In this document: positions 4,801-52,117 of the stretch, piece by piece
Numbering within the stretch: the first letter of the stretch is position 1
Layout: each line of letters starts with the position of its first letter
The notes under the pieces: generated by a model
The model's database searches: none
What the model was told of the DNA's origin: nothing
What the model saw: only the letters and a program-made list of their open reading frames with translations
Program-made: the position numbers and the translations under genes
Origin: Ascidiella aspersa
Taxonomy: Eukaryota
DNA length: 64,000 nt
NCBI GenBank assembly: GCA_963924565.1
Contig: OZ004613.1
Coordinates: 31,310,001-31,374,000 of the forward strand
Direction: 5' to 3'

Positions 4801-7081
4801 TTCAAAAACAAGATGCTGCATGCAATAAGGTACTTACTAGTGCTACTGTGCCTAAGACAAGTTCTTTAAAAATTAGTTCCCAATTAAACGCTTATACGGT
4901 CAAGAAACCTTATTATCAGTCCTCGCCTAACTATTACATTAACCACATTCCAATCAGTCTAATTAAAAGCAATCTTTCCACTAAAAGAGCCGTGTCTCTT
5001 TTACCAGAATCCAGTAACTTCTAATTTAAGCGGAACTAAATATTTCGCACGAGGCCACTTCTAGTAAAGAAGATATTACGAGCCATTGGCTTGTTTTTAC
5101 CAACTACAAACCCCGGTCTACACGAAGCTAATAGTCCCATACCCCAGCATACGTTAAAACGCAAGCTCTGTTGCTGTATTCATAAGCTTGACTGCTTTTG
5201 CTGCTTTTAAACTACAGTTTTGCCGCCTTGTCCTGGTTTCCCAGGTTTTGAAAATAGGTCGTTTTTACTAAAAGCAAGGCGACGATTTAACTTTTCACAA
5301 AACAAGTAAAGTCGAAAGGTTATTTTGAATGGAATTAAGTAATTTTCGTGACATGCTTAATAACTTTTGAATTAACTGTTTAACAAGTTTTGTTTAAAAG
5401 GAAATAAGTTATACATGAACACACGACAAATAAGAGAACTTTTGCATTTCCGTCACAATTTGACTAAGTTTTGCAAAGAGTCAAACTGTTTAATTCCAAG
5501 ACATTATTTATGATCGACCATATTCTCTCAACTTCATTATATTGCGTTCGACTTGGCATTATTACCAAAACAAAGCCCATTGTCTGCTCACAGTGAGCCC
5601 TAATTCAAAGCACGCACAGAAACTGAACAGAGCTTTGCTGTTTTAGCGAGAGACAAAATAAACCTCTTAAAATTTAACGACCATTCCCGGCCCAACCATA
5701 ACCAACAGTAGCTGCCGTTTGGCCTATAGCGTGTGAGATTGAAGCATTTGGAACTGGTGGATTGTTTGGATAACTAGACCTAGGTGCAGTAGCGAAACTA
5801 TAAATCATAAAAAACGCCGTTCTTTCTTAAATGTGCTAAATGCTTTGGTTCATGCGGTAATTGCAAGGTATTTTATAAAAGCTTAAACGTTACGCCATTT
5901 TTATTTTTTAGCTTCTTCCTGTTTTGTCTTATCGACAGCCGCATTAAAAACAGCTCAATAGATTCACTAGTTTACTAATAACAACCACGATAAATAAATA
6001 TTCTCACATTAAAACACGTTTTTCGTTTCCTGTGTTCGCGTCTATAGGCTTGGGTTATTAAATAAATTCTGAAAGGCGCATCTATAAAATAACCTTTTAA
6101 AACACCGAATTTAAATGAAAAAATTACGCACCACCGCGTAAATGTCACCAGCAATTTATCATTTAAACACAAGACAACGGATGGTATTTAACATGTTAAA
6201 GCGCGTACAACGGTGGTTTCCAAGCAACATGTTTTCACCGCTGGTCACTTCTCCCATGTCTAGTTAAGGTTTGTCAGCAAGTTGTAATAACCTCAACCTC
6301 CCACAAAGTGACCCAACATTTTCAGACGATTATTCACCGCGGGATGAACCGTTGTGAACCAAACAAACCCCTAATTCCTACAAACTTTTACAAATATCTT
6401 CGTTGTTTTGAATTGAATTTATATTTAGGACCATAAAACGACCAAGGTGATTTTACGCATCACACAAGCACGGTATTACTGTGCGTTCCGTTTTGCGTAA
6501 TTCTAACAAACTTTAAGCAAACTAGGATTTTACAAATAAATCCGTAATTTCAAAACTTATATAAACTTTTAAACGCAGTAAAACACTCCAGAACGACTTT
6601 TACGTGATTTACTAACTTTTCCTGATGACCAGCTAAGGCAGACTTCATATATTTGTGCAATTATTTTACCGACTGTCTGTTCATGACCCTGACAAGTTCC
6701 ATTAACATCGAGCGAACAAAGTATTGCGCCACAATCGAGACGCTCGTTCACTTCGATCGATAAAAAACTCTTTACAATCGAGAGAAAGTGATGATTCGAA
6801 AAGTCACTTCAACTTTGAAGATTCCGACTCAACAAATCACAAAACTAAACGCGTTTGAAATAAAGAATTTAAACTGGAATCTCCACTAAATATCTAATCT
6901 CTACAACATCACATTTTCTAATTATAAAACTTTCTTCTGTCCACCCTTTGTGATGTAATGAATGGGCTTCTCGCGACCAGCAACTGTCGAGGCAGCTGAA
7001 GTCGACTGGCCCACTTCACCCTTCTCTGTATCGTCACACCGCGCGATTGTTATCGCCATAATAGCTCCTTTTTTCCCCCGC

Positions 7082-7093
7082 GCCGCCATTTTG
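7082..7093. promoter_or_regulatory. YY1-type motif within a CpG-rich island
   Basis: GCCGCCATTTTG matches the YY1 consensus. Related cores occur near 29770, 45142 and 49915. Motif match only. Confidence 0.3.
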
Positions 7094-10018
7094 CCGACTC
7101 TGTGCAAACATCGCGTGAAAAAACGCGGCGTTTAAGGCAGAGGCCTAATTGCTCGCACAATTTTACGCTCGTCTTAATATTGTCAGACGCCTGCCACACG
7201 GATAATACATCATACTGTGACGTCACAAATGCTTTGCGAACTCAGTTGCCATCCTATTTGTGACGTCATATGTATTTTGCTCGGAATTGTAGTTTTTTTC
7301 GCAAAAAATAAAAAACGCTCTGCAGAAATGCGTTCTACAAAAATCAAAGCACGAACTTTTGCTAAAACTTTATTAAAGCCAAAAACTTATTTTTGCTCAA
7401 ATGAAATTGCAACTGTTCAATAAGTTTGCACTGAACGTTTTTAAGTTGTTACTTTCAAACAAATGTAATTCAATTTATACAAAGCACAAACTTTGTTAGT
7501 TGTGTGTTGCACCAAATTAAATAATCATTGTCAATTTTAAAAGGCCGATTTTTTGTTTCCTATACCAGGAAACTTGTCCGTTTATCAACAGCTTTATAAA
7601 TGCATATGTTCAGCAACTTTGCAAGGAACATATTTCATGTAGTTTGGCGCCCAACCTATTGTGACGTCACAACAATTGCCTCAACTGCAATAATGCCCAT
7701 TTTTCGATCGGCCCGCTTATTGGATACCGGGATTTGTTCACTCAAGCGTGAAATACGACGAGGGTTCACGCAGCGCTCATTGGATATAACCACTCCCCGT
7801 TGAACAATGGGAAGCGGTTCGATTAAGTGTGACGTAATAATCACTTGCAGATGTCTCTGGTGTTGTGACGCAATAATGCAGGGACCGATTTCTCCAAGTG
7901 ATAACAATTATCTCTTGCACGTGCCGCCATTGTGATGTAACAGCTACGGCATTGTGACGTCACAGCGGCGTGGATTGAGTTTAAACAAACAGTTTGACGC
8001 GAGAATTTCAGCCGCGAATTATTGGATTTGTATCGCGGCGAATTAATGCGACTTTCCGGCTCAAAAGCGCGATTTATTTCCCAACAAATTTGCTTCTGCT
8101 GTTGGATGTTCAAGGCTTAATTTCACTTATGGGTCGTTTCCGTATTAACAAGATCAAAAGCACGTGATAGCGATGCATTATGAGGTCATAAAGCTTCCTG
8201 ATTAAAATATATGGCGTCTTAGGAATTATTCCCAAATGTATTGGTGATTGTTTGATGCGCTTCTTGGAATCTTGCGAATCGATAAACGCATTAATGTCGA
8301 TGCAATCATGCATTTAGGTCGAATGTTCGATTTTGTGGATGAATACATTAATCAACCACCTTGGGCTTCATCAATATTACAACATAATAATAGAAATGGT
8401 TCTTCTGGTGCAAACGAAATTATAAACCGACGTTTCGTCAGCAGATACCAGCTTAATCGAACAATTTTGCGTTTTAGGTTTGAACTGCCTTCGCAGGCAA
8501 CTTACCTACGGCGGTAAACAATATTCTATCATTTTTAAGTAAGTGATATGTGGTTAATCACAACTACCTGTTGCAACTGAAGTGTCACCCCTTAATTACC
8601 TTTAGAAGCAAAAATACCTGAGTCTATTGCATTAGCCCTCCATCACATTCTAACGTAAATGATCACAACTACTTACATTTGTTTGAAAATAATTTATTTG
8701 TGTAATTCAGAAAAATTAACTTTGTTTACACCAGAATATCAATTGCTATCTATTAATGATGTCTGGTGGTGGTAATTCCATCACTACACAATGTATAGCA
8801 AGATATCGGGGAATGTAGTCGCTTCTATGTCCATATGTTGTTATGTTTCGTAAAAGTTCTGGTAATATACTTGAATTCTATTCTAAAAATTCTGCGCCAA
8901 GAAATTTCGTATACGCAACTTAAAAAAAAAATTTACTCAAAAATTAAAAATAAAACCTTGGCAACGAAACAAGTTTCATTTTCGAAATTGCTTTATTCAA
9001 CGGTTTACCGGAGATTTCGTTTACCTTATATTGAACATTTTTATTGCGACCTTCCATGTGACAAACGCTTTTTCGTCCGGATCAATTTCATCGCGATTTC
9101 AGCTCCGCTGTAAGTGATTTGTCACGCCACAAAGGCGTGAAACGCTTCGATTATGCACAACAATTGATTGACAATCGAAAGTTGAGGGGCGTGCCACAAA
9201 TATGCCATTGTTTACGCACAATGGGGCGATGTCGACATAATCCAGATCGCGCGCAATACAAGAATATTTTCGAACAAGAATCGCGCCAACAATTGTGCAG
9301 GGATTATGACATCACAGTTAAATAAGCTGCTTGGTTTTAGAAGAGCATCCATTGTTAGAAAGCGTCGATATTTTAAACACGGCGATCTGAGCGACTTCTA
9401 AAGCGACAAGTTCAACTCGTTTCGACAAAACCAAGTTTCTGACGATGTTGACTTTAATTTGATTGAACGTGTGAAACAAATTGCGCTTTTCACAAAAATG
9501 TGGGAAATATTTGCACGCGCTACGATTTTGCCTTAAAGTCACGTTTTAAAAACAGTCGGCACTATATGTTGGTTTGGGAAACATTAGTGTTATTTTAAAG
9601 TAAATTAGTTACCTAGATCGTTTTCTAAATTTTCAACTGCCCTTTATAATACTATGTGCTTCCACAAAAAATCAGCGAATTTATCGGCCACAAGAGCCAG
9701 ACCTTATTAAAATTTAGGACAAGTAAACCTTAATTGCAATATAATACAAATAAATTTTACAATCTAAAAAAATGTTTAAAACCATTGGTATATGACAAGT
9801 TTAGCTAACAGTTCATACCAAAGCAGTTGCTTTCAATTGAACTCCGTGTTAGACAGAGTGCAAATATATTAAGCGCCTCAAACATTGTGTGAACTCCAAT
9901 CTTTTTTTGTCGAAGGTTGATTAACGTGTTTGTAATCCACTTGACAGCAACCTCCGATTCTGGCGCTGACTTATTCATGTCTCGCCTCCAACAAATACTC
10001 ACCTCACTTCAAACTGTC

Positions 10019-10050
10019 GGGGACTGGCGGGGTATTTGGGGAAAAGTGGG
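10019..10050 (+). other. Putative G-quadruplex motif
   Basis: GGGG-actggc-GGGG-tattt-GGGG-aaaagt-GGG. Confidence 0.5.
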
Positions 10051-11458
10051 TAAAAATATGGACGAAAAAATGGGCAAATTTGCCAAAAATGTGCTTTATA
10101 ATGCCATCTTTGTTGATTTCTAGTATTGCCTTTTTGTTAAAACCAATTTTTATTTAAATATCTTTATTTCAATAATCTAGCAATTTTGTGTAGTATTCTT
10201 AGGGAAGTGAAACAATATGTATGTAAGGAATATCCCGCAGAAAATAAAATGTAAAATTAAATGGATTCTTAGCTTTGAATCAGTTGAATATTTAGACTGT
10301 TTGTTGGAAAACAATTAAATACCACGAATAATATCCTAAAATAAACAAAAAATCTTAAAAAAAATCCATTTTTTTAACAGCTAAATTTTTATTTATTTAA
10401 AGATTTCACTTAATTTCAACTTAAAGACAATTTCTGACAAATAAATTAAAACAACTTTGCATACCGCCAGTTTAAATTACTAGGTCATTAGTTTACTGTT
10501 GAACATTCATGTTTAGTCAGACTACAACCTCGTCATACTTTCACCCAGCGTTGACAAATCATCCTAATATAGGCGCCTTAGGCTGATCTGGTGTAACCTT
10601 ACCCATCTGGCCTCCACACACCCTCACAACACGATTATTCACCAAAAACTCAACCTTATCATCGTGAAATACGAACCTTGACCTTCATGGAAAGTATGAT
10701 GTTGCCCAATTCACCATTTTTATCGGGAACCCACTTAAAATCACATTTGTCGTATCAGTAGCTAAAATATCACTTAACTCACTCGCTGAGCTTATTTCTA
10801 AAATAAATAAAAATTGTCCACTGTTAATTTCGTCAAAATAAGCATGAATAACAAATCAAGTTTTGAAAACTGATTTGGACGCAAATTATGCTAAAGCATT
10901 ATAGAATATTTAAAAGGAAGGCACAAGTAAATAAGACTAACTATTAACTTTATATATTTGCAGTTGGAGCGTCTTTATTTGACATTAAAACCCTTTTATC
11001 GATTGCTAATTATGCTGACTGCGGATTCTAACTTTTATTATTAATTTGTTAAATTTTAAAAACGAATTAGGACTCACTTGCGGCTTTAACTAGGGGCGTG
11101 ATTGTTTCCTAAAATTACTATAGAAAGCCGTAACAGCAGTAATTTGGTTAACCTTATACGACCAACGGTAAATCGCTTACCCATTTATAGTATAAAACCT
11201 TCCGAAAAGTCTTTCTAAAATAAGCGCGTTTCAAAGATATTTAACGTGTCCATTAAGTCAGACGATTGACAAATATGTGTTTAACGCAATAACTGAGATC
11301 TAGCCCTCACATTGATCAACGATAACATATTAAAGCACATTAAAAACCTAATAAAAGCACATTGAATCTCTTCGGAAAAGTTTACTAAACCATTCCAAGC
11401 CATGAATAAACTGATAATTTTGTATAAGAGACCACCAAGACACCACGAATACTACCAA

Positions 11459-11515
11459 CCCCTAATCCCCTCACCCACCCATGTTACCCCTACTTACCCC
11501 AACCCTACTTACCCC
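11459..11515 (-). other. Putative G-quadruplex motif (8 runs)
   Basis: Plus strand cccc-taat-cccc-tca-ccc-a-ccc-atgtta-cccc-tactta-cccc-aa-ccc-tactta-cccc. Confidence 0.55.
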
Positions 11516-14500
11516 TTCAATCCAACTTGTTTGCTTAAGCAGCTCCCGTCCCACATATTGGCAGTATGTCGCGTCACAATACTCTGCTTTGTAAACGTCA
11601 CAAAGCAAACGCGCGACACTGGGAGAGGTGCCTCGTGGTTTCCGCAGCAAATATTTGTGGAATATTGCTCATAAATATCGAACAAACGCTTTTTGTGGCG
11701 ACCCTCAAGGAACCTAAGGCGCTCACATCTGAGCAGATGCTAGTTATGGAGGTTTGAAGTCGAGCAAACAAACTGTAATTAACAAGAGTCCGGTGATAAG
11801 TTGTCAACAATAAGTCATAAGTGCAACTGTGGGGTATCTTCAGTTCAAACAAAACAAAGCACTTAAGCCTCGCATGTTTTAATGTTGACTCTCCAAACTA
11901 AATACCATGCTTGATTCGAACGCTTTACGCTTTTCCTAAAAATGAGCAACAAGATTCGGCGAAGTATTTAAGAATAGAAGTCAAAGGAACTAATAGACAC
12001 ACACATATGTTTACAACTGTGAAAGCTGCTTTTTGACCAACGATTACAACTTACACATCATTAGTAGACCATCACAGTTGTTTTAAAAGCAGCTATGTGT
12101 TATTTTCGCGGCGCAATAAATTAGGTCTATCAAATGCTTTACGCTTTTAATTTAAAAAAAATGTCAAAAATAGGAATTAAACAAAAAAACAGCGACCACT
12201 TTCCTTTGTTTTGGCGAGGTCAGGGTTGTTGACCCCAAGAACCCTTCTTTTTACCCCCTGGAAAGTACCAAACGAACCCCAGCATTCCCAGCCTCTTAAT
12301 TGGATCCCACTTTCCGCGTTAAACGTGCTTTGATTGTTCACGACGCGGTTCCTTTGTTCTCGGCGCTTCTGCTTTGTGACGTAACACCGCGCTCTCGGCA
12401 AAGTTCGTCTTTCCACGCTCAACTGACAAACGCTAAACCCGGGCTTCGCGCGCTCTCCTCGGACCCTGATTCATTGTGAGTTTGCATATCAATTATGCAG
12501 ACAATGCAACTCGAAATCTCGACCATTATTACGTCACACTCGTCGGTTGTTTCGCTTAATCCTTGTTCCAACAAATCGCGGAATCGCGCGATCGCATCTA
12601 TGAAGAGAAAGTCGCCCAATTTGTGTCTGGAACATTATGCTTGTGTCGTAATAATGCTTTCATCGCCTACGCTTGTTACGTCACAAGCGATGAAATGAGT
12701 TAAAATGAGTCAGGTCGTGTTTTGGGAAAATTAATTAACTTTCGTCAAAAAAATCGTAAAGTCATTAAAAATTACCGACTTACAAGGCCCTGTGTCATGC
12801 CTCATTGCGCAAGCAACAGACCAGTGTGACGTCACAAACATGCCGAAGCAGCGAAGCGTGACATTCGGTTCCTTCCGACGGCATGAACCGGTGTGAGCGT
12901 AGCGGCTTGTTTTGTAAACTTCTGTGATTAGTTTTGTAAACGTCGAGGCGCCATTGTTGCGTCAGAAGGGCCATTGATGGTGGATTGTTGGTGATTGTTA
13001 CGTGTTGAGTCGCACAGGGATTCTCTGATCAGTCACTTGTTGGGTTGCGTTTGATGTGGATTCAGGTTTCTTGGGATAATGCTAATCTAGCAAAGTTCCC
13101 GCCCCCTTCAATATATCGCTTGCACCTGTACAACTCACACAATAAGAAGCTTTTGTGGATTGCGTGTTTACTTCCAACCCCTGGGATACTTAATCTATCC
13201 GGTTGGTGGCCAAATAAACTATTCGAATCCTTGTGGTCAATTTACTAAAGGGATGAATACCGTTGGCGTTTTACTATTTCATTATAAACCCTCTAATGCC
13301 TGTAATCTTCCTTATCTATAAGCATGGAACACATACCAGCAATACTAGCGCAATATTTTTAAGCAAATACAAGACAAAATTATTTATCATACGCAAACAA
13401 GTATTATGGAATACTTTGAAACCAACAAAATTGCGTAAAATGCTGCTTTTTCAAACAACTATATAATATTTGACCTAACACATATACACAACTTAAAAAC
13501 TAAACATAAACCCTACAACCTTCCCCTTTTCAAACTATGTCTTTTTTTAAAACTTTCTTACATTTACAAATAACGTCATTTGAATAATTTACAAACAAAT
13601 AGCAATCAGTTTAAACTTGTGATGTCAAACACTCGTATAACGACCTCCAATAATTTTGGACTTGTGAAAATATTTCATCTCCCATCTACGAAACCACACA
13701 AACATGCGGAAACCTTGTTCAATAAAGTTCGTTGCTTGTAAACGTGCTGCTCATGTGATACCGAGGGTATTCAAGTCTTTATTTAGTTTTCTCAGTCACT
13801 TCCATATTTGTAGGGACCAACTCAGGGTTGGTGACATACGGTCCGCATGTTTTCCAAATGTGCCAATGTTATGTTTTATTGGTAAAGGGTCACAAAAAAA
13901 CAAACCCGTGCCAAGCTGTAGTTTGCAAATACTCCCGGAATTGTAAACTTTACTGTTCGGTGTTTTTTGCTGATCCGATTGCCATGCCGTTCTCCATCAT
14001 TGTCCAAAATGGTCTTTGGAAAATTTGGGTCAATTGGTTCGATTAAACTAAATATAGGTTGAAAGTGTTTTATTAATGTTGTAGGAACATAATTTGGCTG
14101 GTTTTTATTCAAATTAAAGCCAAACAGTGATTTTTTTGCAATGCTATCTTTACAGTATTTTTGCTTTTAGAAGTATTAGCGTATGACGTGCAATTGTGCA
14201 GTTTATTCTTCTGCAAAACTCGTTTAGTTTTTAATAAGTCTTAAAAAGCAATGCAACGTGATGTTTTCCCCCGTAAACAACTTTAAACAATTCACGTTCA
14301 TGTAAAACCGTTTAAAAGCGGATAATCTCCTTATGGAGTCAAGCTCTTATATTTCTCGCACATTTTAAACCCAAACATCTGCATCCCGTCATTTTCACGT
14401 CATAAGCGCCACAGTAAACGTCACAATCGATCATAAGCTTACTAGGTTCGCAGGGTTGGGCGACTGTGGCTTAGAGCTATCACATGTCGGTAACTTTACA

Positions 14501-17500
14501 CTGGATCCATTTAACGAGGGCTCTGGTATTTTCGTGGCGGTTTGAACGCAGCTTTTGTGCTGATATCTGCTGCTGCTTTACCTTCTGCTGCTGCTGCTGT
14601 TTTTTATGAGATGGCGGTTGTTTTTGGGTGGCCCAATTTACGACTTAATAGTTTCGCTGGAAATTCGGATCTGAGCGGATTCGAAGTGAAGCAAATTGCT
14701 TTTGGTAAATAATCTCACGTTAAGTTGCTTTCATTAAAGAAACAAACGCTTTCCTGCATACATATTATCCAAAAACATTAAACTCCATTTTTTAGTAGTT
14801 TGACCTAATCTTAAATGTAGATTTTGTAAAATTGCTTGAAATTACTACGAAAATAGCCAAATAATAAAATTGCAACACCTCGATTATTCTATTTTTTTTT
14901 TAAATTCCCTTTATGTGCGTATTTTTTCCACACTCTAGATGCCTAAAAGCCGACTATTATATAAGTAAAAAATTGGCAAAATAGTCACAAATAATATTAC
15001 CATGATTAGTTTTTTTCATATATAGTTTCTTAATACGGGGCTGTGCATTAATTTAGATTCTTCACTTACGTGATTTAAATTATTTTTTTTAAATATGTAG
15101 TTGTGTGCTTGTTCGAACTTTACATTAGAAACCACAAACCCGGCAGTAGCCTTTTCATAATTATCTTGTTCGCTTAATTCCCAAGTCATTAGGTTTCTGA
15201 AACCTAACCCGAGTCGCCACGAAGCTCAAAAACTACTGAAGCAGCTACTTCCATCCCATAAACACTTGTGCAACTTGGTTAATGCTAGAAAGCTGTAAAT
15301 GCTTGCTTATATCATATAGTTTTTGCGCCTACATTAGGTAATAACGTAAATGTCATAAAATATGCAAACTGAATGTGTAAAAAAGGAACTTTTAATTTCT
15401 ACCACCTGATTTACGTGTTTACATTATTTTGTATTCGTATTTCAGAGACGGATGATGCCGTGATTGGCGAAATATATTTCTCTTTTATAAACTAGAACCT
15501 ATAGCGACTGATTTTGACTGAGACAAAAAAGTCTAAAGTATATTGTCATAAAATACTCTGACACTTTTTTATTTGATCAACTACCGAGATACAACCAAAT
15601 ATTAACATGAAGTTGCTTAAAATGGAGAAATGTGTTGTTAAAATATTCAGTTTGTCTCATGCAATTATTTCTGTGATATAAACATAATTTTTGTGGCAGT
15701 TCAACATTTTTAAGCTTTTGTTTGAAAGTTTTATTAGCATGTGTGTTCACCAAAACATCTTTTCAAGACAGAAAACACCCAGCAGCACTGAACATGATTT
15801 TTTTTATAGTAAATGCAGACACTAGTTCGTCAAACGCGCTCAAACACGGGTTTCAAAAAGTAACTTAACCTCCCCCTTTTACAAACACAATACTTAAGCA
15901 TGGGCAGGTTTAAAGACGAATAATTTTGTGGAGGTTAAATGATATAAAAGTGTTTTCTGTAAAATGTATCAATGGATTCCTTTACCTAAATTTCTACTGA
16001 AACAAGTAAAATAATGCACAAGCTGCAATAAGAAGTTGTATTTTTTTCAAGACTAAACCACAAACAATTTTTCGGCGAATACTTGAAAAAAATTCTATGG
16101 ATGTTAAAAAATTTCTAAACCATGGAAGAGTCATTGTAAGAATGACAACCCAACAAATCACAAAAAATGGATGGAGAGATGACAGTTTCCCAGTCCGAAC
16201 CACAAACCACATTTCTTAACTTTTTCTCACATAGAAGCTTCTCATTGTTGTTCGCTTCCAGACTCCTTTGTCCATCGCGTCGGCCCACAAGTAACCCGAC
16301 CCCCCGAACCCCATTTACGGCGCAACCGAACACCCCCCGCTCCCCAACGTTCCACCAAAAGCGCGCGCGACTCTGTTTGTTGCCAAACCGCGGCCGACAA
16401 TGGCGGCGTGTGACGTCACAATGCAAAAGCGCGACCCTAACACGGAGGGGCGGGCTGCTTCGATTTGGAGTAAACCGATTTGCTGTTAATCGCCTGTTGT
16501 GAGTAAACTATGGCCGATTATTGCGTCACAATTGCGTGGAAGCTGCTAAAAGTTGCTGGAAGTTTGTGTGAAATGATATTTACAAAAACAAACAATTATT
16601 TTATCACTTCGATCGTTATTTTAAACGACGTTGTATAGATTTTTAATCGCTTTATGTAAACGATATGTGTTCTGTCATCGTTGGTCAGTACGAATTAGGG
16701 ATTGCCAGATCACGGATAAAGATACGTGTATTTTAAAGTGATAGGTTGGCTTCTCATTGTTCTCTTTATGTGCATTACACCGTTTACGACTTTTACAAAC
16801 CAATAGTTTTGTCCTACGTTAAAACAAAAGCTTCCTTGTAGTTAAATTGTTAGTTGTTTTTCAAACCCAATGTAAAGGAATTTCCCCATTTTAAACAAAA
16901 TGCAAAAATTCTTAAAATAGTGCTATTTGCTGCCTCCCACAACATTCCCAACCTTCGCCCAGTTATAAAACTTAATTCAGACTTCTACTTGCGTACTGTG
17001 TAAACCGCTAAGACGTCAGATGGCGCAATGCATCAAATTTACGACCTAAATTAGTTGGGAGAAAGATTTAATGTTCGACGTTTCGCTGCAAATATCGCCA
17101 TTAAATGCCAAACAAAATATTCAATTTAAACTTTAATTATAATCTGTCAGTTCTTGGGTAAACAGGAGTTTGACAACTGGTTATGGGTTGGACTCTTACT
17201 TAGTTTCAATCAAACTGAGTGTTTAATGAATGATGTACGGATTATTCTGAGTAAAGTTTAACAAACTGATGTTATGTTTGCCACAAAGGCCGTGTTCCGC
17301 CCTATTAAAGCACCAATCCCTCATAACCTTAAACAGGGGCGAATCGTTACTCTTAAAACCCGAAGTCCCTGTGTAAACCTTACCCTACTACCACTTTATT
17401 CCACCGTTATCTGAATATCCAAGGTTGTGTTTCGGCAACTTAAAGAAGTGTGTTAATGATAACATTGCATTTATTGTAAAGTATATTAGCGTTAATGACG

Positions 17501-27703: not shown

Positions 27704-27709
27704 ACGACA

Positions 27710-40400: not shown

Positions 40401-42897
40401 ATAAAACATCGCTTCTGGATTTCACCAGATCACATCCTATTTACATTTGGAAGTTTTGCGAAAGTAAACTTTAGTTGAATCACTCCGGACAGAAGGATTA
40501 GGCTTGTTCTAACTAACATTGTCTCGCTGTCACTGCGTCACAATCGCGCACTATTTCGTCACAGAGCGACGCCGGAGCTAGACCGAGCATGACATCTTTG
40601 TTTTCACAGCTCGAGATGCCAGGTTGCAAGCGAGTAAAGTTTAACGGAAGAATTCAGTAAAACCAGCTAATGCTGCCCCTGGAGGCTTGAGAAAGAGATT
40701 CTTGAGGTTTGAGAGAATAGAGGTTTTATTTTCCTTATCACTGAGGATTATTTGAGGCTAGGAAGCTATTTTGCAGGACAAACAGATTTTAACGGGTAAA
40801 ACTCGCATTTTAATAAACTTTTTCAGAATAATAAAACACTATATTCGATAAAATCGTCATTTCTCTGTTTACAAGCGTTTTGGCAATACCTCATGACGTC
40901 ATCAGTTTCAAAATATTTAAGCGATAATAAAAGCAAAAAAACGTTAAAAAAGCTAAAAGTTTCAGAATAGTTTAGGTAGCAATGTAATCTATCATTTGTT
41001 GAAAGTATTCTACCGTCAATTGTGGTTTGTGTCTAGTTAGCCTAGATGTGTAATTTCGACAAGTATGCCTTTTGTGTCCAAATGGTGTTACTTATAAATA
41101 CATGACGCAAATAACGCATGAAATTTCATCGGGTTTCAAGAAAAGTGAAACATCATCTACGTTCGGTTTTCAGATTTGGTGTAAATCACCAATCTATCGC
41201 AATAACGTTAAAAAGTATTTCAAAGCATTTCTGCCATATTAAAGCACACATTGCGTCAAAAAACTAAATCCAAAAGGTTTCCAGAAATTAAAAAAATGTG
41301 AATTATTACCTGTTTATCAAATTAACCATGAAACACGATAACTAATAATGGCATGATGCTAAAAAATGTGCATTCAGGTCTAGAGTATTTAGGTACAATC
41401 TATATCAGCCTTATTGCTTTAATATCAAGTGGATTGTATTTGTTTAACTTATCGGAAGTCTATGTCGTCACAGTTGAGATTGTGATCTAATAAGTGTCTT
41501 TATTGCGGCAATAATAGGAAAGCGCGGGATCCGATTTCAACAAATTTAGATCCGAGATAATGCTTACTTAATCCCCGCACTACCACAATGCCGCTTTGAT
41601 ACGTCACAAAGCTTGCTTGCCTATTAAATTTTATTTTTTGAATATTATTTTTTTAATTAAAGCATGACATGGCCATCTTGCAATCTAAAGTTTATAGCAA
41701 ACTCCTAAAGCTTGCTACTTGTCATGCTTAGTATTTTTAAAGACTGTCTCTGTATTTAAGTTCAACGTGGACTCCTCCAGAAAACCTTTTATCCAACACG
41801 TAAAAACATTTTCCAAATGGCTTATTGATTATTTGTGGCTTCTATCAATAGTTAAAAGCCAAGTTGGCTGAGAGATATTAAACTTCATTTAACCTGCAAT
41901 AATGAAGTTCACATGGGTCATAACAAACTCTAAAAGGGGTTTCATTTGATTCGGTAAAGAGAATATACTTGCAGTTCTTATTAAATAGGTTCATTACTGT
42001 TCAGTTAAAATGAAAACCCACGGAAGCAGATGTTTATCAACTTGTAGCGACCCCGTGACAACTTGTATCAAGCGCCGGCAGCTTTTAACACGGACTGAAT
42101 CAATAAAGTCTCTCGCTGGAAACTTGTCGTCGCTTCGAGTTGGCAGCGAGCTTATGGAAGTTCATTATTACATCATAAGCGTTCCAAGCTAAACTAGACG
42201 CTCCCCTGAGCAAAATGTCCCCCTGGGGCCAGTTTTGCCCCCCCAAGGATCGAAATTACCCCCCGGAGATTTGAATTGAAACTCACTGTGTGATTTGAAA
42301 ATGCGAAACGCCGATGGTTGAAGTCACGTGATGATCGAACATCTTTGTGACGTAACGATTGACTAGTGACGTTTTTCCGACACCTGCAAAGCAAACAGGT
42401 CAAATGTGAACTTGATTATTACAAAAATAACGACAAAACTGACTTGCATTAACGGTATAAGTAACTGAGCGTAATTATAAATCTAGAAAATAGTTACATT
42501 TGGAAACTTTGACAAATAAATGCAAGCTATTTTTGAAATAAACAACTTTCGCCGATTTGCACAAAACGAAGAATTTTAATTTGTTAAAACCCGGTGCTTT
42601 TCCGCCCTACCAGTCTCAGTTACATTGTTACGTCACAAAACCTACTGTTACCTGATATTGTAGCGCTTCTTGCGCGATCTGGGAACTTTTTGCCCCGGTT
42701 TTGTGCAACTAATCACGATTGTGCGATAATTATATTGTTTCTTAATTATAGTGGAGAATTACAAACCGACAACTCGTCGAAATCCCGCTGTCCGGCTTAA
42801 ATTTAATCCCTATTATGACATCACAATTCGCGTCGCGCGCTTTCCTACCTTGGTTGCCGATCACCAAAACTTTGGCAGTCGCTCTTTTTTGCGCCAT
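34481..42897 (-). CDS. Rab-family small GTPase of the Rab5/Rab22/Rab31 group (RabX1-like), 200 aa, 7 coding exons
   Basis: complement join(42849-42897, 42287-42383, 37077-37146, 35819-35912, 35519-35548, 35326-35454, 34481-34614). All introns are GT-AG, phases match and the total is 603 nt. Protein: MAQKRATAKVLVIGNQGVGKTSLVNRYVTKMFDHHVTSTIGVSHFQITQEIGDHDVTLQIWDTAGQERFRSLMPMYYRNSAAALLVYDVTSKDSFVALKEWASELQNNVEENIILFVVGNKTDVPVVERQVEKQEANDFADSVGAHFREVSALSSHGVNDVFLDLCIKVVHMQQLLHQKEEAQASIGPSMTQESNQCCGT. G1-G5 boxes and a C-terminal CCxx prenylation motif are present. Confidence 0.93.
34957..35004. repeat. Short direct repeat in Rab intron 6
   Basis: atttatgttggacacaatttgt occurs twice. Confidence 0.8.
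38094..38141. repeat. 20-bp tandem repeat in Rab intron 2
   Basis: (aaaagcaatactgtatcttt)x2 plus aaaagcaa. Confidence 0.85.
39736..39768 (+). other. Putative G-quadruplex motif containing two GGATTA sites
   Basis: GGG-ttt-GGGGGG-attaagt-GGG-attaaggt-GGG. Confidence 0.45.
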
Positions 42898-43955
42898 TGC
42901 AGCAGAAACTTCGATTGTTCCGTCACAACTGCCAATATGCTCAGTTGGCACGAAGTGCTTTGTTACGTCAATAATTAACCGATCGCTCTCTGTGTTCGGA
43001 GGGCGATTCTTCATTGTGACGTCACAGTGCAAATTGTGCCGGAGCGCGATGTTGGTTTGTTGAGGGATTAAGTGTGGCTGTGATATTTAATTTGAATAAT
43101 TGTAGGATAGTGATCGGTTGAGTTAGTCGCCAACGCATTTAATGTTGAACCTACGTACATGGTTCGTTGTGTAATGGCTTCAAATAGATTGTGTCTGAGC
43201 AGAAATATTAAATAACCTGTAAATTTTATATTTCCTGTGTTTTTACATTTGATCTGCTTTTACGTTTGTATTTGTAGAGCACCGTTAAGTGCGATAATAT
43301 AACGTACCAGATAACACATTGGTGCTAAGTTCTTGGTGGTGTAAGGGTCATATGGCATAATTCGCAACTTTTAAAGGCTGTAATTGTAAACGTTTACCAG
43401 CATATACATAAATTGAGAATTCAGACCAAAATGATTTTAAGTTGTATGTGTGGAATATATATACCAACATCCATACAAATTAATTTGAACTGCGAACGTT
43501 TTAACTCAAATTGACATATTGGTGGTATATTAGAATGGTGAAACAGAATAAATATTGTCTCATTCGCGAAAAAGCCTTTTAGTAAATCTGTTAGCAAATG
43601 TGTACATCAACAAATCATTAAAACACAAAAAAACAAATTTAAAAACTTTTAACAAAATCTGTAACATTGTTCAAACATTTCGAATAAATCTTTATCCAAT
43701 GAATTACAGATACGTTATAAACAAATAGTTAGTGGACATTGTGGAAAATCACAAACATACGATTGTTCCAGGTTGTTTGAAGTCGTCAGTTTAACAAGGG
43801 ATTGTTTTAAGCATAAGTTGTTGTTCGCGTGTAGTTTGTTTTACCGGGAGGTTGTGCTTTGAAGTTTAAGAGTGATTGGAATTTACTCCCTGGAAATAAG
43901 AGCCGTGTTAACTAAAAACACACGGTGTGGATAGACAGGGGTGTGGTTTACACGA

Positions 43956-43985
43956 GGGAGGGGTAAATGGGGTTTAGAAGGGGGG
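43956..43985 (+). other. Putative G-quadruplex motif in the Rab/FLRT-C divergent intergenic region
   Basis: GGG-a-GGGG-taaat-GGGG-tttagaa-GGGGGG. Confidence 0.5.
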
Positions 43986-45703: not shown

Positions 45704-46009
45704 CAGTGTTTCTCACCCATGGGTCGCAACCAATAACTGGGTGGCCGTTTGATTTGTTTGGTCGCCGACTACATTAATTAATTAATTAAAATAGTTCAAT
45801 TTATTAAGATTGGTTCTGAGCAACATATCTCTAAAATTTACGAGGATTGCGAAAGCATTATGAAGACATGCCCCATATTTGCTGCTATCTTAGGACTTAT
45901 TTGTTCACTTTAAGCTTGAAACAAGTTCGATAGGATAATTAGGTCGCCAAAGCTGTTAAACTTACACTTAGTATTTAGGCCGCCACAAAAAAAGGTTGTC
46001 AAAACACTT
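45704..46009. mobile_element. Degenerate hAT-like MITE, family 1 copy, abutting the FLRT-C acceptor
   Basis: Starts cagtgtttctcaccc and ends ggttgtcaaaacactt (imperfect TIR). Internal similarity to 33459-33765. Confidence 0.6.
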
Positions 46010-46041: not shown

Positions 46042-49000
46042 ATGAAGCTAACAAAAGTAGGGACTCTATCTGTGCTGACGCTGCTCGTGACGTCATTAGC
46101 AGTGACGCAATCGCTGCAGGACTGTCCGCGCAAATGCAGATGCGACGAGCGACACCGTACGGTCTACTGCCAGGAGCAGCAACTACCAGTTGTCCCCTAC
46201 GGTGTACCCCCCAACACCAGGGTGCTGCACATGCAGGATAATGACGTCATAAACGGACCTATTGTCGACGAGAACCTGTCACAATTGACGCGATTGGAGA
46301 AGTTGAACATGTACGGCAACCAGCTGACAGCTGTACCAGCAGGTCTCCCAGCATCTCTCGAGTTTGTGTCGCTCAGGAACAACAGGATCAGGTTCATCGG
46401 GAAGAATTCACTCCAGGGATTAACTTCGCTCGCTGAGATCTACTTGGACTCAAATAACATCACAAACCTTGGTCTTTCAAGCCTTGCGTTCAGCGACACT
46501 CACAACCTGCAAGTACTCGTGCTCACTGACAACCTACTCACCTCGCTACCCGAAGGACTTCCGAGTAGTTTGCGAGTTCTCAGACTAGACTCGAACCTCA
46601 TCCAAAGCATCTCCAAGTCGTCCCTCCTCCATCTCAACAAACTCTCACTCCTCGATCTTTCATACAACAAGATCAACCAGGACTTCATCGCTAGAGGCGC
46701 TATGCTGCCCCTCACATCTCTGACGTCACTAGCGCTTGACGTCAACCAGCTCACCGAAATACCCCCCCAACTTCCCCCCTCGCTCAACGAACTCACGATG
46801 TCACGAAACAACATCCGCTACATCTACAGCAGTGATGACGTAGACGATAATGACGTCATGGTTGGAAGTTTGAGCTCGTTGCATCAACTGATGACGTTGG
46901 ATCTGTCGATGAACTCGTTACGTAGCGTCCAAACTGCGTCATTCGCCAACCTACGTCACCTAGCAACGGCCAGCTTCCATGGCAACGCGTGGGTGTGCGA
47001 TTGTCATCTCGATTATTTCAAACAATGGCTCATTGTCACCAGCTCTGTGCTTAGCAGCGAACATGACGTCACATGCCAAGCTCCACCGAGGTTTAGTGAC
47101 GTCACACTTAACAGCATCGACGTCGAAGCGCTAAAGTGCGGTCAACAAAGCCTACAATTGACCAGTGTGACGTCACAAAGCGTGGTTGTTACGTGGAAGC
47201 ACGAAGAATCGAACCCCCCTTACATAGAGAAGCGTCTCTTGTATGGACCCCTCACCTGCCAGAACTGCTCCCTCGACCCTCGTGACGTCATCAGTGACGT
47301 CACCGACCTCGTGGACCAGTACAGTCTACTGGATGTGACGTCACAAGTGCTTAACAATCCCGAAAACGCTGAGATCGAGATCGACCGATTAGTCGCCGGG
47401 ACGCGATACTTGGTCTGTTATTACGTCACAGAGCAAAAGATCGCGGACATCGACATGAACCAGTGTGTGTATGCCTCGACCAATCAGCTTCCTCCGTCCA
47501 GTCCCCCCGCTCACGTGACGCAACAGACCACGTGGCCCCCGCTCTGGATTATCCTCGTTTGTTGCATCACAGTACTCGTCGTCTTCATTTGCATAATCGC
47601 AGTCGTCATATTACGTCAGCGGCGATCACTCAAGCATGGCCACAAGAGGAGCCCAGGAGCGCGTGGGAACCGTGACGACTTTTACTTCCCGGAAGCTTAT
47701 ATTCCGGGTTACACGTACGCCCCAGCGCCCCCCAGTGGCAGCTTCGGCACCAACTTGAGCGAGCGGACTTACATGGAATGCGGGGAGGCCGACGCGTCAC
47801 TAGAGTTTGACGTCATGATCAAGCCTAGCGACGTGACGACACCTAAACACGTGATGACGTCACGGTACGAGGACGTCACGATCGAAAGGTGGGTTGATTT
47901 TGCGAAGAACATAATGTTTCCGGTAAATTTTAAGTTGGTTAAACTGCGGCCATTTTAAAATAAAGATATTCGATTTTATTTTCAAAATTTCTCTTTAAAA
48001 ACATTTTTGATCTTTGCTCACTAAAAAGAAATGGAGTGAAACGCAAAAAACGAGGTTTAGAGAACTTTGTATAGAACTCAATTACATAATTAATCAATAT
48101 TCATGCAAAAGTAACTCACAAATCAAATCTAGACAATAACCATTGCCAAATTTGGTTCCACCCTTTGAACAATATTCCTTATTTTGCGTCACACCCAAAC
48201 ATCGATAGTAAAGGTTAAACTCCCTGTCTAGCACATTTAGGTAAAATTCCTAAAAGTTGGGTCAAAGTACTTGAAAATCAAATTCCGGTCAAAATTACGC
48301 GAAAGTGCTTGAACTAAATATGATCGAATTATGCAAACCCTTACTTAATTGCGATGAACCGCAGTAAAATCGCAGCAAAACAACCCACCCAGCCTACATT
48401 ATATGCTTCTATGGTCAAATCTCCAAGTGTAAGTTCAAGTGCTCGCCCACTCTCAGTATCTGCTGTAATTTCCTCCTTTCCACAAACCAGTGCTCGCCAT
48501 AATTGACGCCTTCACCTAATTGTGATTTTAGGCGCCGAAGCCAAACCCGTACACTACAGTGTACAGACTTGCTAGTTGCTGTACATACGCAGTTTTAAGG
48601 TTTTTCCTGTAATTGGCCCAGAGTAATGTTTTGCAATGGCGCCTGTTAAATTTTATGGCCAATTTTTTTATTTAAATGTTTCTACGATGCTGTAAAAACT
48701 TTTTACAGTTTTAAATTAGAAAGTAAAATTGTCGTTTCAATTTTGTTTTATATTTATTTTCCCTAAAAAGCTGTCAGTAAACTTACTTTGTCAATATATT
48801 TATTTTGAACAACTCCAAATTAAGGAAATTTGGCAAACGTTTAATAACCACACTATTTCTATGTCCGATTGAATTGTTTTACATCTATTTATCTTACAAT
48901 AATAGAACCCCAATATAATTCATTGCGAATGTTCTAAATCAATGTTTCAAAGTGTGTGAAAAGTAAATCACCTTATAGGAATAAAATTAAAACGTTAAAG

Positions 49001-50093
49001 GAAAAAGAATTTTACAAACGAGAGACTAAAGTGCCAACGACCAATTAGGTTCTTGGTTTATTTTTTTGCTGAAGGCAGTAGGCTTTTTAACTGTTGAACA
49101 CCAGCATTTTACAAGTCGAAAAAAGTTGACAGAATGTCGCATACAACCTTTGTTTGATTCGATTTTCTATATATCCAACAATAATAAAACCCTAACCCAA
49201 TTTCACCAAAGTTATATATTTTTGCGTATAGTCATAATACAGAGCAATGCCGTGCTGGGTTGTCAGTAGACTTACCTCCAGCGAAGCCATAAAAGCTTTA
49301 AAAGCGACGTAATTTGAAACCAAAGCGCACATTTTTCGCGGCCAGTCAGGAAAGCTATTAAACCTAATAAATCTTCGCTGCATTTCTTTCTGCTTTTCCA
49401 TCACAACCGGGCTTTGTTGATTATGAAGGTTACCTCGCTGTAACACGAGTTTTAATAAGGCTTAATCAAATACTCACTTCTATTTGAGCAAGGTTCAATT
49501 ACATAATGACACTACATAGAGTGCATAACCTGCTCAAAACAGCAAATAAAAACTTCGAGTCATAAATCAAGAATTACAATTTTCGCAAAACATCAAAACG
49601 CCTGTTTAAAATTTCTTTTCAATTCTATTTGACATAAAATTCAAAATTCGTGAAAAACAGACAAAAGTGTCAAATCCAGTCAACTGTAAATAACAACAAT
49701 AGGTTTATGATTATTGTTTCTAATAGACACCTTGATATAAACCAACGTTTACATAAATTGTTCTAAATAAAATATATATATTTTTTTGATTTAGTAAGAA
49801 TATCAAAGCCCATGCAGAAGTATGTATCATTTTAAACGTTTCAAATAACTTTTTATTCGTTTTCAACATGTTTTGATTTAAATATTAGAATTCGTTTTCC
49901 CGCCTAAATCCCGAGCCGCCATTTTCTAAACCTTTCCATTTTAAATTCCAGCAATCCCCGATTAAGCTCCAACCCAACTCCGTCAACCAATCACAACGCC
50001 ACAATCGCATCACGTGACGACCCCTATCTAGATGACGACACGTCAGCGACAATGACGTCACGACTACGTCATGAAACCGGGATTTTTGTCTGA
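46042..50093 (+). CDS. FLRT: FLRT-like leucine-rich repeat/FN3 transmembrane protein, paralog C (662 aa, 2 coding exons)
   Basis: join(46042-47888, 49952-50093). Exon 1 carries signal, CPRKCRC LRRNT, LRRs, GNAWVCDC LRRCT, FN3 and TM. Donor AG/GTGGGT at 47889 and acceptor ttccattttaaattccAG at 49951 are phase-2 compatible. Splicing gives ...IESNPRLSSNPTPSTNHNATIASRDDPYLDDDTSATMTSRLRHETGIFV*, which matches the paralog B end DDTGVYV*. Confidence 0.92.
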
Positions 50094-50182
50094 ACTTTGT
50101 TGCTTTTTTTAGCGGAGCCGGTCTCCTTTTTAAGTTCACTTTATACTTTGTAGCGTCCTGTGAAAAATATTAAACTCTATAG

Positions 50183-50454
50183 GAGTGGTTCTTGATCTAA
50201 TTAAGGGTAATTACTACCAAAGCGGGGTAATTGATTTTTTTTTGGGGGTGGGGTGTTGGGAGGTGCAGTGATATAAAATTATATATATATGAACGCTAAA
50301 AAGCAAAATGTCCTATCTAGCCTTCCAAATATTAAATTGGTCATTCTAGTTTTGTATAACTTTTATAAAGTCATAAATTTACAGTTTTAAATAGGGGCAA
50401 CTAAAATACATTATGTTGTATTTCATGGTAAATTTAAAAGGTTGAGAACCACTG
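50183..50454. mobile_element. hAT(Charlie)-like MITE in the FLRT-C 3' UTR
   Basis: Termini gagtggttcttga ... ttgagaaccactg with 8-bp flanks ctctatag (50175-82) and ctctagag (50455-62), a 7/8 match. Confidence 0.7.
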
Positions 50455-50840: not shown

Positions 50841-51443
50841 AGCTTTGTTGTTTTAAGCTACGATCGGTTTTATTGAGGGAAGTAATTACTTTGTGCAGAT
50901 CCAAACTTGCCCGCCCAACAACCTGATGTGCCTTTGTGACCGAATAGAGGCTAAAACTTAAACGACGCCGCTCGGGGAAAGTATTTGCTGTCAATCATTA
51001 AAACGCAATTATTAAATTTGAAGTCGATGGATTAGCAATAACGTGATGTTTACATTTCATTCGATTCACAAAAGCTTTTCGAATATTTCGAACCTCCACT
51101 TGATATTAACTTCACGCAGTGTTACGACACAATGCCCCAAGGCTACGTCACAAAGGCATCCCGCGACCAACTTTCGGGTTAATCGAGAATTCGTTTCACT
51201 TTTATCAGATTGATTGTTTCGTCACACCTTTTACTGTGACGTAACAATGATAAATATAAGGGAGGCAAAAGTGGAAAATCGATTAAAATATCCAGGTGCA
51301 TGTGACGTCATAAAGGTTGCTTCTCGCGACTCGGCTGCGTTCACTGATGCATGACGAGTGGGGATATTGTGACATCACGGTTGACTGCTGTGACGAAACA
51401 AACAAATGTTTAATGAAATTCGAGTCGGCGGTAATTGTTGTTG

Positions 51444-51480
51444 GTCACGTGACTTAATAGCGGGTAATTAGCCAATCAGA
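51444..51480. promoter_or_regulatory. Promoter-like module: perfect GTCACGTGAC E-box plus CCAAT box
   Basis: GTCACGTGAC at 51444-51453 and gCCAATcag at about 51472, inside a CpG island about 1.3 kb upstream of the NOSTRIN-like ATG. Confidence 0.35.
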
Positions 51481-52117
51481 AGGCCGCAATGTTATCAGCC
51501 TCTTAATTGTAAGTCGTGCCTTCCTGCAATTATGACATGATATAAGTAATTATTACGTCACCTAGGGCCACTGTGTCGCCAACAAGCCAAAATCATTACC
51601 GCGCAGTTTCTCATATTTGACTTTGTTGGTGGGATTTTGTTTCGCGAGGTTTTGAACATCAGAGATGAATGGAACGTCAGGAAAGCAGGGCAACCGAAGC
51701 GCGTCGATGCGTGACCTTGTTCCGCTTCGGTGCACTTCTGTCACAAAGTTAATAAAAAGTTGTTTTTGAAAGGAACTTCCTGAAACAACATTAAAAGACA
51801 GCAGTTCGGTTTCAATACAGTACGAGAGTTTGATGGAGTTACAGCGCACTCTAGCGATTGTTGTGGCAGTATGTGGGTTTATCCGCCAGATGGCGGTAGA
51901 TTTAGTAGTTCCAAGTTTATGAGAACTATTTAGCCTGGACTTACAGCAGCAAAAAGTATATAACAAAATGCAGATTAACAAATTTGTAAAGTCAAGTTAT
52001 TCTCAGTCCCTAATTTACCAGTTCGAATCTATGGCAAGTATTTATGATGATTCTTCGGTTACCATTTCCTAACATAAACTGAAGCCACAGAGAAGGTTTG
52101 GTCTTGTCAGAAAACCA

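What the first reader, a model, noticed from the sequence alone, without database searches (positions are those of the whole stretch)
7000..51560. Recurring non-coding CpG/CRE islands with polar C-rich left and G-rich right flanks
Seen: every 1-4 kb the AT-rich background breaks into islands of roughly 100-800 bp rich in CGCG, ACAAT/ATTGT and variants of an extended palindrome ATTGTGACGTCACAAT. Examples are about 7200-8000, 11560, 12320-12960, 16360-16540, 19900-20230, 20850, 26100-27170, 29760-30310, 36430-36640, 38650-38890, 39660, 42600-43050 and 51100-51560. Many have C-run tracts on their left (11459, about 12230, 16284) or G-run tracts on their right (20971, 26181, 30024, 36661, 39736), so G-richness points outward on both sides regardless of gene strand. 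The tracts often contain GGATTA. Inference: a repeated chromatin module (enhancer, nucleosome boundary, or replication origin with G4-prone flank) that is not a TE family, since islands do not align end to end.
Basis: partly seen in the sequence, partly recalled or inferred. Interest (0 to 1): 0.7.

Follow-up and report, generated by a model that had tools for sequence, protein, structure and literature searches.

The report
Sea-squirt CRE-studded regulatory islands
In this sea-squirt genome the CpG-rich islands are single-copy stretches that are likely ordinary gene switches, and their C-left/G-right edge bias is real but weak; the stranger result is that the eight-letter word they carry, TGACGTCA, is also written into protein-coding exons by codon choice and is about three times denser near chromosome ends.

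Summary
The window comes from a phlebobranch ascidian and holds three intronless FLRT-like genes and a spliced Rab-family gene. The islands are real and single-copy, not a repeat family. They are CpG-rich and carry CRE-type words, like the GC-rich open-chromatin clusters described in Phallusia and Ciona; one is the Rab promoter region.

The C-left/G-right polarity replicates in three held-out genome samples (+0.06 to +0.11, against +0.23 in the window). It is confined to ±100 bp of island edges, is shared by any GC-rich patch and does not depend on CRE. Runs on both sides are rare (1 of 17 islands), and the GGATTA orientation does not generalise. The direction is opposite to the OGRE origin signature.

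37 of 56 TGACGTCA sites lie inside three coding exons (13, 13 and 11, against about 1 after synonymous shuffling). In a test stated beforehand, the word was 3.3-fold denser near chromosome ends, with flat GC and CpG.

Best reading: a cluster of bZIP-bound, unmethylated regulatory elements, with weak selection for the site spreading into exons. A recombination-linked origin is not excluded.

The parts
1..1722 (-). FLRT-like LRR-transmembrane gene A, single coding exon running off the window's left end; 11 TGACGTCA
   Evidence: 60% identical to a Phallusia FLRT2-like protein
6972..7301 (.). CpG/CRE island (2 TGACGTCA), C-rich left edge
7648..8172 (.). CpG/CRE island (2 TGACGTCA)
8965..9558 (.).
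11432..11528 (-). C-tract (G4 motif on the minus strand, G4Hunter -2.1) left of the small island at about 11547-11762
12215..13049 (.). CpG/CRE island, single-copy in the genome, edge skew -0.25/+0.13
16196..16536 (.). CpG/CRE island with C-tract 16272-16371 and a GC-box-like word; single-copy
17621..17987 (.).
19761..20180 (.). CpG island with hybrid TGACGTAA sites, little polarity
20671..21026 (.). CpG island with a G-tract at 20971 followed by a C-tract (no net polarity)
26100..26236 (.). small CRE cluster (26137) with a G-tract and GGATTA to its right
26444..27170 (.). large island upstream of gene B, likely its promoter region
   Evidence: low-depth contig 27006-27212 in run X3; role inferred
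27710..29563 (+). FLRT-like gene B, single coding exon; 13 TGACGTCA
   Evidence: covered at depth 80 in run X3
29760..30310 (.). island just past the end of the high X3 coverage of gene B, with an internal C-rich to G-rich switch at about 29970-30020; single-copy
35325..35454 (-). Rab-family gene, exon 6 (its 3' boundary is approximate; RNA coverage continues to about 33200)
35519..35548 (-). Rab exon 5
   Evidence: RNA joints
35819..35912 (-). Rab exon 4, holds a TGACGTCA
36310..36764 (.). intronic CpG/CRE island with a G-tract at 36661
37075..37146 (-). Rab exon 3, holds a TGACGTCA
38612..38905 (.). intronic CRE island, no polarity
39564..39772 (.). intronic island with a G-tract and two GGATTA to its right
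42287..42383 (-). Rab exon 2
42664..43067 (.). island holding the predicted Rab exon 1 (42897-42849, minus strand) and its promoter; faces gene C, so possibly bidirectional
   Evidence: sequence; exon 1 is not RNA-confirmed; low-depth X3 contigs at 42931-45770
46042..47958 (+). FLRT-like gene C, long coding ORF; 13 TGACGTCA
49858..50277 (.).
51100..51560 (.). CRE island

Best explanation
The islands are single-copy, CpG-rich stretches studded with TGACGTCA-type words, and they are likely unmethylated promoters and enhancers bound by a CREB/ATF-type bZIP protein in a cluster around three signalling-receptor genes. The same word is built into neighbouring coding exons by synonymous codon choice (shown), likely because many weakly beneficial bZIP sites keep the whole domain open or unmethylated (inferred). 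A population-scaled advantage 4Ne·s of about 4 would give a 70-fold excess at mutation-selection balance (textbook model, my arithmetic). The excess near chromosome ends (shown) would follow if recombination is higher there and makes weak selection more effective (inferred; no recombination map). The C-left/G-right skew is a short edge footprint shared by all GC-rich patches (shown). It is most likely left by short outward transcription or the bordering nucleosomes, with a small share from splice donors (inferred), and is not a purpose-built G4 module.
For: Single-copy, with no terminal inverted repeats. The window is about 5% repeat against 29-37% in genome samples. CRE-rich islands are 1.8 per 10 kb against 0.29 in held-out loci. 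The variant spectrum looks like a protein recognition rule: in unique genome sequence TGACGTCA is x18.7, hybrid TTACGTCA x4.1, TGATGTCA x2.0, but TTACGTAA x1.0 and TGACTCA x0.8; flanks follow RTGACGTCAY. One island holds the Rab first exon. Twelve bZIP matches exist in the genome. In coding exons 37 of 52 compatible peptides realise the exact octamer. Elsewhere 9 of 22 do so in CpG-retaining ORFs against 0 of 7 in CpG-depleted ORFs. Sites turn over: 10 of 24 have a compatible peptide in the Phallusia orthologue. Literature: Phallusia and Ciona ATAC peaks are short, GC-rich and cluster near regulatory and signalling genes (10.1101/371005); TRTGACGTCA was the one significant MEME motif in Ciona notochord enhancers (PMC11001920); CRE mutation impairs muscle reporters (review PMC6589888); constitutively accessible elements at one locus held CREB sites (PMC6952182).
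Against: No ATAC, methylation or binding data for this genome were available, so open, unmethylated and bZIP-bound are all inferred. In PMC11001920 the CREB-like site was dispensable in two enhancers and mostly lay outside minimal elements. RNA run X7 (6% read) showed only repeat-like, partly fitting reads in 7001-27000 and none in most island bins, so outward transcription is not seen. CRE words also sit in dispersed repeat families (listings). Selection is not shown: 10 coding variants in gene B missed all 13 sites, but only 0.6 hits were expected (my arithmetic). Ciona is reported to lack CpG-island promoters (PMC3333190; PMC4691747), so 'CpG island' is only descriptive here.
Confidence: 0.6

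Rival explanations
1. The word is tied to meiotic recombination: a bZIP dimer on TGACGT marks break sites, as Atf1-Pcr1 does at the fission-yeast M26 site (recalled), or conversion favours the bound allele. The motif then accumulates regardless of coding status, most at chromosome ends, and repair leaves the edge skew.
For: TGACGTCA in unique DNA is 4.38 per 10 kb at 100-250 kb from ends (26 loci) against 1.31 beyond 2.1 Mb (80 loci), p 5e-4, predicted before fetching. GC and CpG are flat along the same axis. G/C runs are also denser at ends (32 against 18 per 10 kb) and point outward 84:41 there. Coding exons are invaded in both possible frames.
Against: No recombination map was available. 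A site that starts breaks in cis should be lost by conversion, not gained (established hotspot paradox, recalled). Flat GC argues against plain GC-biased conversion. Polarity against distance to the end is not significant (rho -0.11, p 0.09), and the 1.1-2.1 Mb bin is the poorest (0.21 per 10 kb), so the gradient is not smooth.
Confidence: 0.17
2. Neutral sink: protein binding in the germ line shields the site from mutation or methylation-deamination, so sites that arise by chance persist, with no fitness effect.
For: The motif is found in CpG-retaining ORFs and absent from CpG-depleted ones. Reporter mutations are often silent in Ciona. Site positions turn over.
Against: It needs a 20- to 70-fold lower loss rate. 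Compatible peptides themselves are 7- to 9-fold in excess in genes B and C, so amino acids are affected. It does not explain the chromosome-end excess.
Confidence: 0.12
3. The islands are replication origins with G4-prone flanks (one of the first reader's options).
For: Four strict G4 matches at three tracts in 64 kb against 25 in 1.58 Mb. Human CpG islands show bidirectional asymmetries attributed to origins (PMC2817419 abstract). Initiation just outside an island, 3' of its G-tract, would still fit.
Against: The skew vanishes beyond 100 bp from the edge (+0.085 at ±100 bp, +0.005 at 100-300 bp, about 0 out to 3 kb). OGRE origins are G-rich left and C-rich right on the Watson strand (PMC4665008), the reverse of this. 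Two of the three strict G4 tracts have no called island beside them.
Confidence: 0.07
4. The islands are decayed MITE or transposon copies, and the C/G tracts are their inverted ends.
For: Some repeat families elsewhere carry CRE-like words next to G or C runs.
Against: No island has a homologue in the sample or, for three tested, in the genome. End-to-end complementarity is within or barely above the shuffle range (maximum 14 against 12).
Confidence: 0.03

Closest known systems
[quoted passage not shown]
   Same: Short GC-rich non-coding elements clustered beside signalling genes in a close relative (Phallusia); 73% of 49 tested there had regulatory activity.
   Different: Defined by ATAC peaks (5 or more in 10 kb), which I could not test; sequence-called islands here are about 2.8 per 10 kb. 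Its main text has no hit for 'motif', 'CREB' or 'palindrom'.
CRE-like motif TRTGACGTCA of Ciona enhancers and muscle promoters (PMC11001920, PMC6589888; passages read)
   Same: Same word, repeated within ascidian regulatory regions, with context-dependent necessity.
   Different: Treated there as a non-coding, tissue-linked site; here it is the top 8-mer of the genome sample (45,059 copies genome-wide against 5,750 for the control word), sits in coding exons and rises toward chromosome ends.
GC-skewed unmethylated CpG-island promoters of vertebrates (PMC3787257; passages read)
   Same: G excess on the non-template strand downstream of the start gives the same C-left/G-right sign for outward transcription.
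   Different: There the islands are 0.7-1.25 kb and tied to R-loops; here the skew is 0.06-0.2 over ±100 bp, at any GC-rich patch, with no transcription shown.
OGRE/G4 replication origins (PMC4665008; passages read)
   Same: Oriented G-rich tracts beside putative open DNA, usually on one side only.
   Different: Opposite orientation relative to the centre.
HIP1 highly iterated palindrome of cyanobacteria (recalled; also named in earlier scan notes)
   Same: A palindromic octamer over-represented inside coding sequence through codon choice, with site turnover.
   Different: Bacterial and linked to methyltransferases (recalled); here the word matches a eukaryotic bZIP site, tolerates half-site swaps and is confined to CpG-retaining regions.

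Membership tests
Ascidian CORE / open-chromatin cis-regulatory elements | Accessible chromatin (5 or more ATAC peaks within 10 kb) | not testable with these tools
   No run labelled ATAC among the 11 listed
Ascidian CORE / open-chromatin cis-regulatory elements | Short non-coding elements richer in GC than background | tested here: met
   GC 0.42-0.61 in 12 of 13 named islands against 0.365
Ascidian CORE / open-chromatin cis-regulatory elements | Clustered beside regulatory or signalling genes | tested here: met
   Three FLRT-like receptors and a Rab; CRE-rich islands 1.8 against 0.29 per 10 kb
Ascidian CORE / open-chromatin cis-regulatory elements | Sequence conservation within the genus | tested here: inconclusive
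   Run X5 (organism B) gave short, about 97% identical, low-depth pieces, too close to test; X2 pieces show 0.8-3.4% differences but are too coarse
Ascidian CORE / open-chromatin cis-regulatory elements | Reporter activity | not testable with these tools
   Bench test
CREB/ATF-bound CRE | RTGACGTCAY consensus with a bZIP-like half-site tolerance | tested here: met
CREB/ATF-bound CRE | Bound by a bZIP protein in vivo | not testable with these tools
   Only presence of bZIP genes shown (12 matches)
Vertebrate-type CpG island (GC 0.5 or more over 200 bp or more; definition recalled) | GC content and length | tested here: not met
   Only 2 of 13 named islands reach GC 0.50 over 200 bp or more
OGRE/G4 replication origin | G-rich left and C-rich right of the centre on the Watson strand | tested here: not met
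   Opposite sign in window, neighbours and three held-out sets
OGRE/G4 replication origin | Nascent-strand enrichment | not testable with these tools
   No such data
Transposon / MITE family | Multiple homologous copies | tested here: not met
Transposon / MITE family | Terminal inverted repeats | tested here: not met
M26-type recombination hotspot | Motif-dependent meiotic breaks or crossovers | not testable with these tools
   Only the chromosome-end excess is shown; the M26 link is recalled

The most novel reading that the evidence does not exclude
Ascidians use one bZIP word, TGACGTCA, as a genome-wide chromatin or recombination mark rather than as a tissue-specific switch. It would stand in for vertebrate CpG islands or PRDM9, is strong enough to rewrite codons and amino acids in unmethylated genes, accumulates toward chromosome ends, and leaves a C-to-G strand flip at the edges of the domains it marks.
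Probability: 0.2. Interest if true: 0.8.

Novelty: new variant of a known kind. Interest (0 to 1): 0.45.

Why it matters
The islands themselves are what ascidian enhancers are expected to look like. Two by-products could matter. First, Yokomori et al. (PMC4691747) ask what substitutes for CpG islands in ascidian promoters; a 45,000-copy bZIP word that tracks CpG-retaining DNA is a concrete, testable candidate. Second, a DNA word realised in 37 of 52 possible places inside three coding exons, and denser near chromosome ends without any GC change, gives a direct handle on how non-protein constraints or recombination reshape animal proteins. Both can be tested with existing Ciona and Phallusia ATAC, methylation, SELEX and polymorphism data.

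Tried and rejected
An early guess that the genome was a beetle was dropped after the protein search. My recollection that Suzuki et al. 2013 reported CRE in unmethylated Ciona genes was wrong: no such passage in the main text.

A loose island caller (9 CpG per 150 bp) gave no excess over simulation (42 against 55) and was replaced.

Whole-genome pattern counts of G5 or C5 next to the motif point both ways. At 15-45 bp, C5 exceeds G5 (986/1350 against 605/885), which is against the polarity. At 50-110 bp, G5 exceeds C5 (309/751 against 171/253), but one repeat family dominates that listing. Neither count is repeat-masked, so I give them little weight.

An exon artefact explains only part of the skew: splice-donor words are oriented at edges, and masking them lowers held-out skew from 0.078 to 0.064. 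The 10 held-out islands with no donor-like word showed +0.005±0.070, too few to tell.

CRE dependence of the skew was rejected (113 islands without the hexamer +0.085; 27 with two or more +0.074). In the first held-out set the CRE-rich subset alone was not significant (8 of 13).

Helical phasing of CRE pairs is nominal at a fixed 10.4 bp (p 0.01-0.05 in 9 of 15 tests) but mostly lost after scanning periods.

No Rfam match. No listed holder of the stretch was on record as RNA. Earlier scan notes held nothing on this motif in this genome.
Full report
Setting. The window is G000:C7:31,310,001-31,374,000, 350-410 kb from the end of one of nine chromosome-size contigs of a 308.6 Mb genome. Its long ORFs encode LRR-transmembrane proteins whose best named hits are Phallusia mammillata (56% and 60%) and Ciona FLRT2-like proteins, so the organism is a phlebobranch ascidian. 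There are three such genes: A (1-1722, minus), B (27710-29563) and C (46042-47958). RNA reads reveal a fourth gene: joints at 35454/35519, 35548/35819 and 37146/42287 on the minus strand join exons that match Pfam Ras (3 of 4 exons tested).

The islands are real. CpG counts per 200 bp have variance/mean 2.56 against at most 1.12 in 20 simulations. A strict caller finds 18 islands against a mean of 4.9. The 13 named islands have about six times the CRE half-site density and twice the CpG and ACAAT density of the remaining non-coding DNA. They are not a repeat family: mutual matches are 16-39 bp, there are none to 1.58 Mb of other loci, the ends do not pair, and three islands searched genome-wide are single-copy. 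The window is about 5% repeat against 29-37% in genome samples (masking is by self-comparison of the sample, so it is a lower bound).

The motif. TGACGTCA occurs 56 times in the window (0.83 expected) and 45,059 times in the genome against 5,750 for the reversed control. It is the top 8-mer in 98 spread loci, with consensus RTGACGTCAY. In unique sequence, of the 12 one-off variants only the hybrid TTACGTCA (x4.1) and, weakly, CGACGTCA (x2.6) and TGATGTCA (x2.0) are raised; TTACGTAA and TGACTCA are not. That pattern resembles a CREB/ATF-type bZIP rule (recalled), and the genome has 12 bZIP matches. The word is known from Ciona regulatory DNA. It was the single significant motif among notochord enhancers, though mostly outside minimal elements (PMC11001920, passages). 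It is needed in two muscle promoters (review PMC6589888, one passage). CREB sites were noted in constitutively accessible elements at one locus (PMC6952182, passages). Ciona CREs lack a start-site bias (PMC1796609, passages).

Polarity test. I called islands with strand-symmetric words only, dropped those with 20% or more repeat or longer than 1.3 kb, and compared GC skew at right and left edges (±100 bp). Window +0.230 (17 of 20); 200 kb of neighbours +0.167 (19 of 25); first held-out set +0.062 (90 of 138, p 9e-5); second +0.107 (32 of 45); simulated sequences about 0. A third set from chromosome ends gave +0.103 (32 of 52, p 0.01). Four results limit it. The effect is the same for GpC-rich and merely GC-rich patches (155 of 225; 64 of 89). 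It is no stronger with CRE. It is gone 100-300 bp out and stays absent to 3 kb. The two sides are independent (Fisher p 0.55), with runs of four on both sides in 1 of 17 window and 14 of 169 held-out islands. Splice donors contribute a little (0.078 to 0.064 after masking). GGATTA, an Otx-type site known from Ciona enhancers (PMC2855326, abstract and outline), points outward 9:0 here but 21:25 elsewhere. Unmasked whole-genome run counts disagree with each other and are swayed by repeats. The sign matches outward transcription at vertebrate CpG promoters (PMC3787257, passages) and is opposite to OGRE origins (PMC4665008, passages).

37 of the 56 sites lie in genes A, B and C (11, 13, 13). Shuffling synonymous codons within each gene gives 0.7-1.2 (maximum 5-6 in 1,000 shuffles); 37 of 52 compatible tripeptides use the exact octamer, in both possible frames, and such tripeptides are 7- to 9-fold in excess in B and C. 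Among 52 non-repeat ORFs of 180 codons or more in other loci (26 repeat-rich ORFs set aside), realisation was 0 of 7 at CpG o/e below 0.7, 1 of 7 at 0.7-0.95 and 9 of 22 above, concentrated in 5 of 28 ORFs; repeat ORFs had 4 of 14. In Ciona, unmethylated genes are the less broadly expressed ones (PMC3827831, abstract and one passage). Only 10 of 24 sites in A and B have a compatible peptide at the same column in the Phallusia orthologues, yet those proteins keep an excess (12 against 2.4; 7 against 2.0), so density rather than position seems to be kept.

After noticing dense sites at the start of C1, I wrote down the prediction and fetched 36 loci at 100 and about 250 kb from all 18 ends. In the 26 with more than 3 kb unique sequence, TGACGTCA is 4.38 per 10 kb against 1.31 in 80 interior loci (p 5e-4). 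GC (0.35-0.36) and CpG (2.8-3.5 per 100 bp) are flat. The profile is uneven, with the 1.1-2.1 Mb bin lowest, and gene class was not controlled.

Mechanism. Shown: single-copy CpG- and CRE-rich islands; one at a gene start; a short edge skew common to GC-rich patches; codon-level installation of the motif; an excess at ends. Inferred: open, unmethylated chromatin, by analogy with Phallusia and Ciona ATAC peaks, which are short, GC-rich and clustered near signalling genes (10.1101/371005, abstract, passages and section 14); bZIP binding; weak selection for many sites, more effective where recombination is higher; and outward transcription or border nucleosomes as the source of the skew. RNA run X7 gave no support for outward transcripts at the depth read. 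The recombination-linked and neutral-sink rivals remain open; origin and transposon readings fit poorly.

Novelty. Islands and motif are of known kinds. Nine answered literature searches (one search was for origin papers) turned up no account of exonic CRE packing, a chromosome-end excess or edge skew in ascidians. Most subscription papers are not searched. Kusakabe 2004, Brown 2007 and Khoueiry 2010 were seen only as citations in reviews. I read no supplements; those of PMC11001920 and 10.1101/371005 may bear on this. Other papers seen as passages: PMC10931586, PMC10030826, PMC4691747, PMC3333190, PMC3580780; PMC2817419 as abstract only. M26, HIP1, the hotspot paradox and the mutation-selection formula are recalled.

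Verdict. Observation partly confirmed; interpretation partly supported; a new variant of a known kind; interest 0.45, carried by the exonic and chromosome-end behaviour of the motif rather than by the flanks.

Noticed in passing
window 33200-42897, minus strand: A spliced Rab-family GTPase gene with no long ORF lies between FLRT-like B and C, head to head with C; three introns are confirmed by RNA reads, and even its small exons carry TGACGTCA (2 in 472 nt).
   Followed up: yes
window 1-1722, 27710-29563, 46042-47958: Three intronless FLRT-like paralogues within 48 kb, with GC3 0.61-0.74 in a 36% GC genome. The C-terminus of gene C may continue in another exon (a donor-like site near 47890).
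   Followed up: partly
G000:C1:1-164000 and other chromosome ends: The first 164 kb of C1 hold 100 TGACGTCA (6.1 per 10 kb against 1.46 genome-wide); 17 TGTGACGTCACA lie in the first 0.3 Mb against 33 in the next 7.35 Mb.
   Followed up: yes
window 52117-52325: A short inverted-repeat element with about 50 matches in the 1.24 Mb sample; G-rich left arm and C-rich right arm, the opposite polarity to the islands; MITE-like.
   Followed up: no
G000:C1, many places: A dispersed repeat family of about 120 bp, with a hybrid TGACGTAA site at one end and a G-run at the other, makes up roughly half of that listing; transposons may spread these sites.
   Followed up: no
window 52400-63000: A CpG-depleted, AT-rich block with no TGACGTCA, consistent with a methylated gene body next to the CRE-rich domain; the boundary is sharp.
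   Followed up: no
window 42215-42267: A run-rich tract that is G-rich on the Rab sense strand just downstream of the exon 2 donor; possibly intronic G-runs that aid splicing.
   Followed up: no
coding exons and genome sample: A weak hint that neighbouring CRE-like sites prefer multiples of about 10.4 bp (nominal p 0.01-0.05).
   Followed up: partly
L030, L081, L034: 10-kb loci with GC 0.45-0.56 and very high CGCG counts; L030 and L081 are repeat-masked and may be rDNA or satellite.
   Followed up: no
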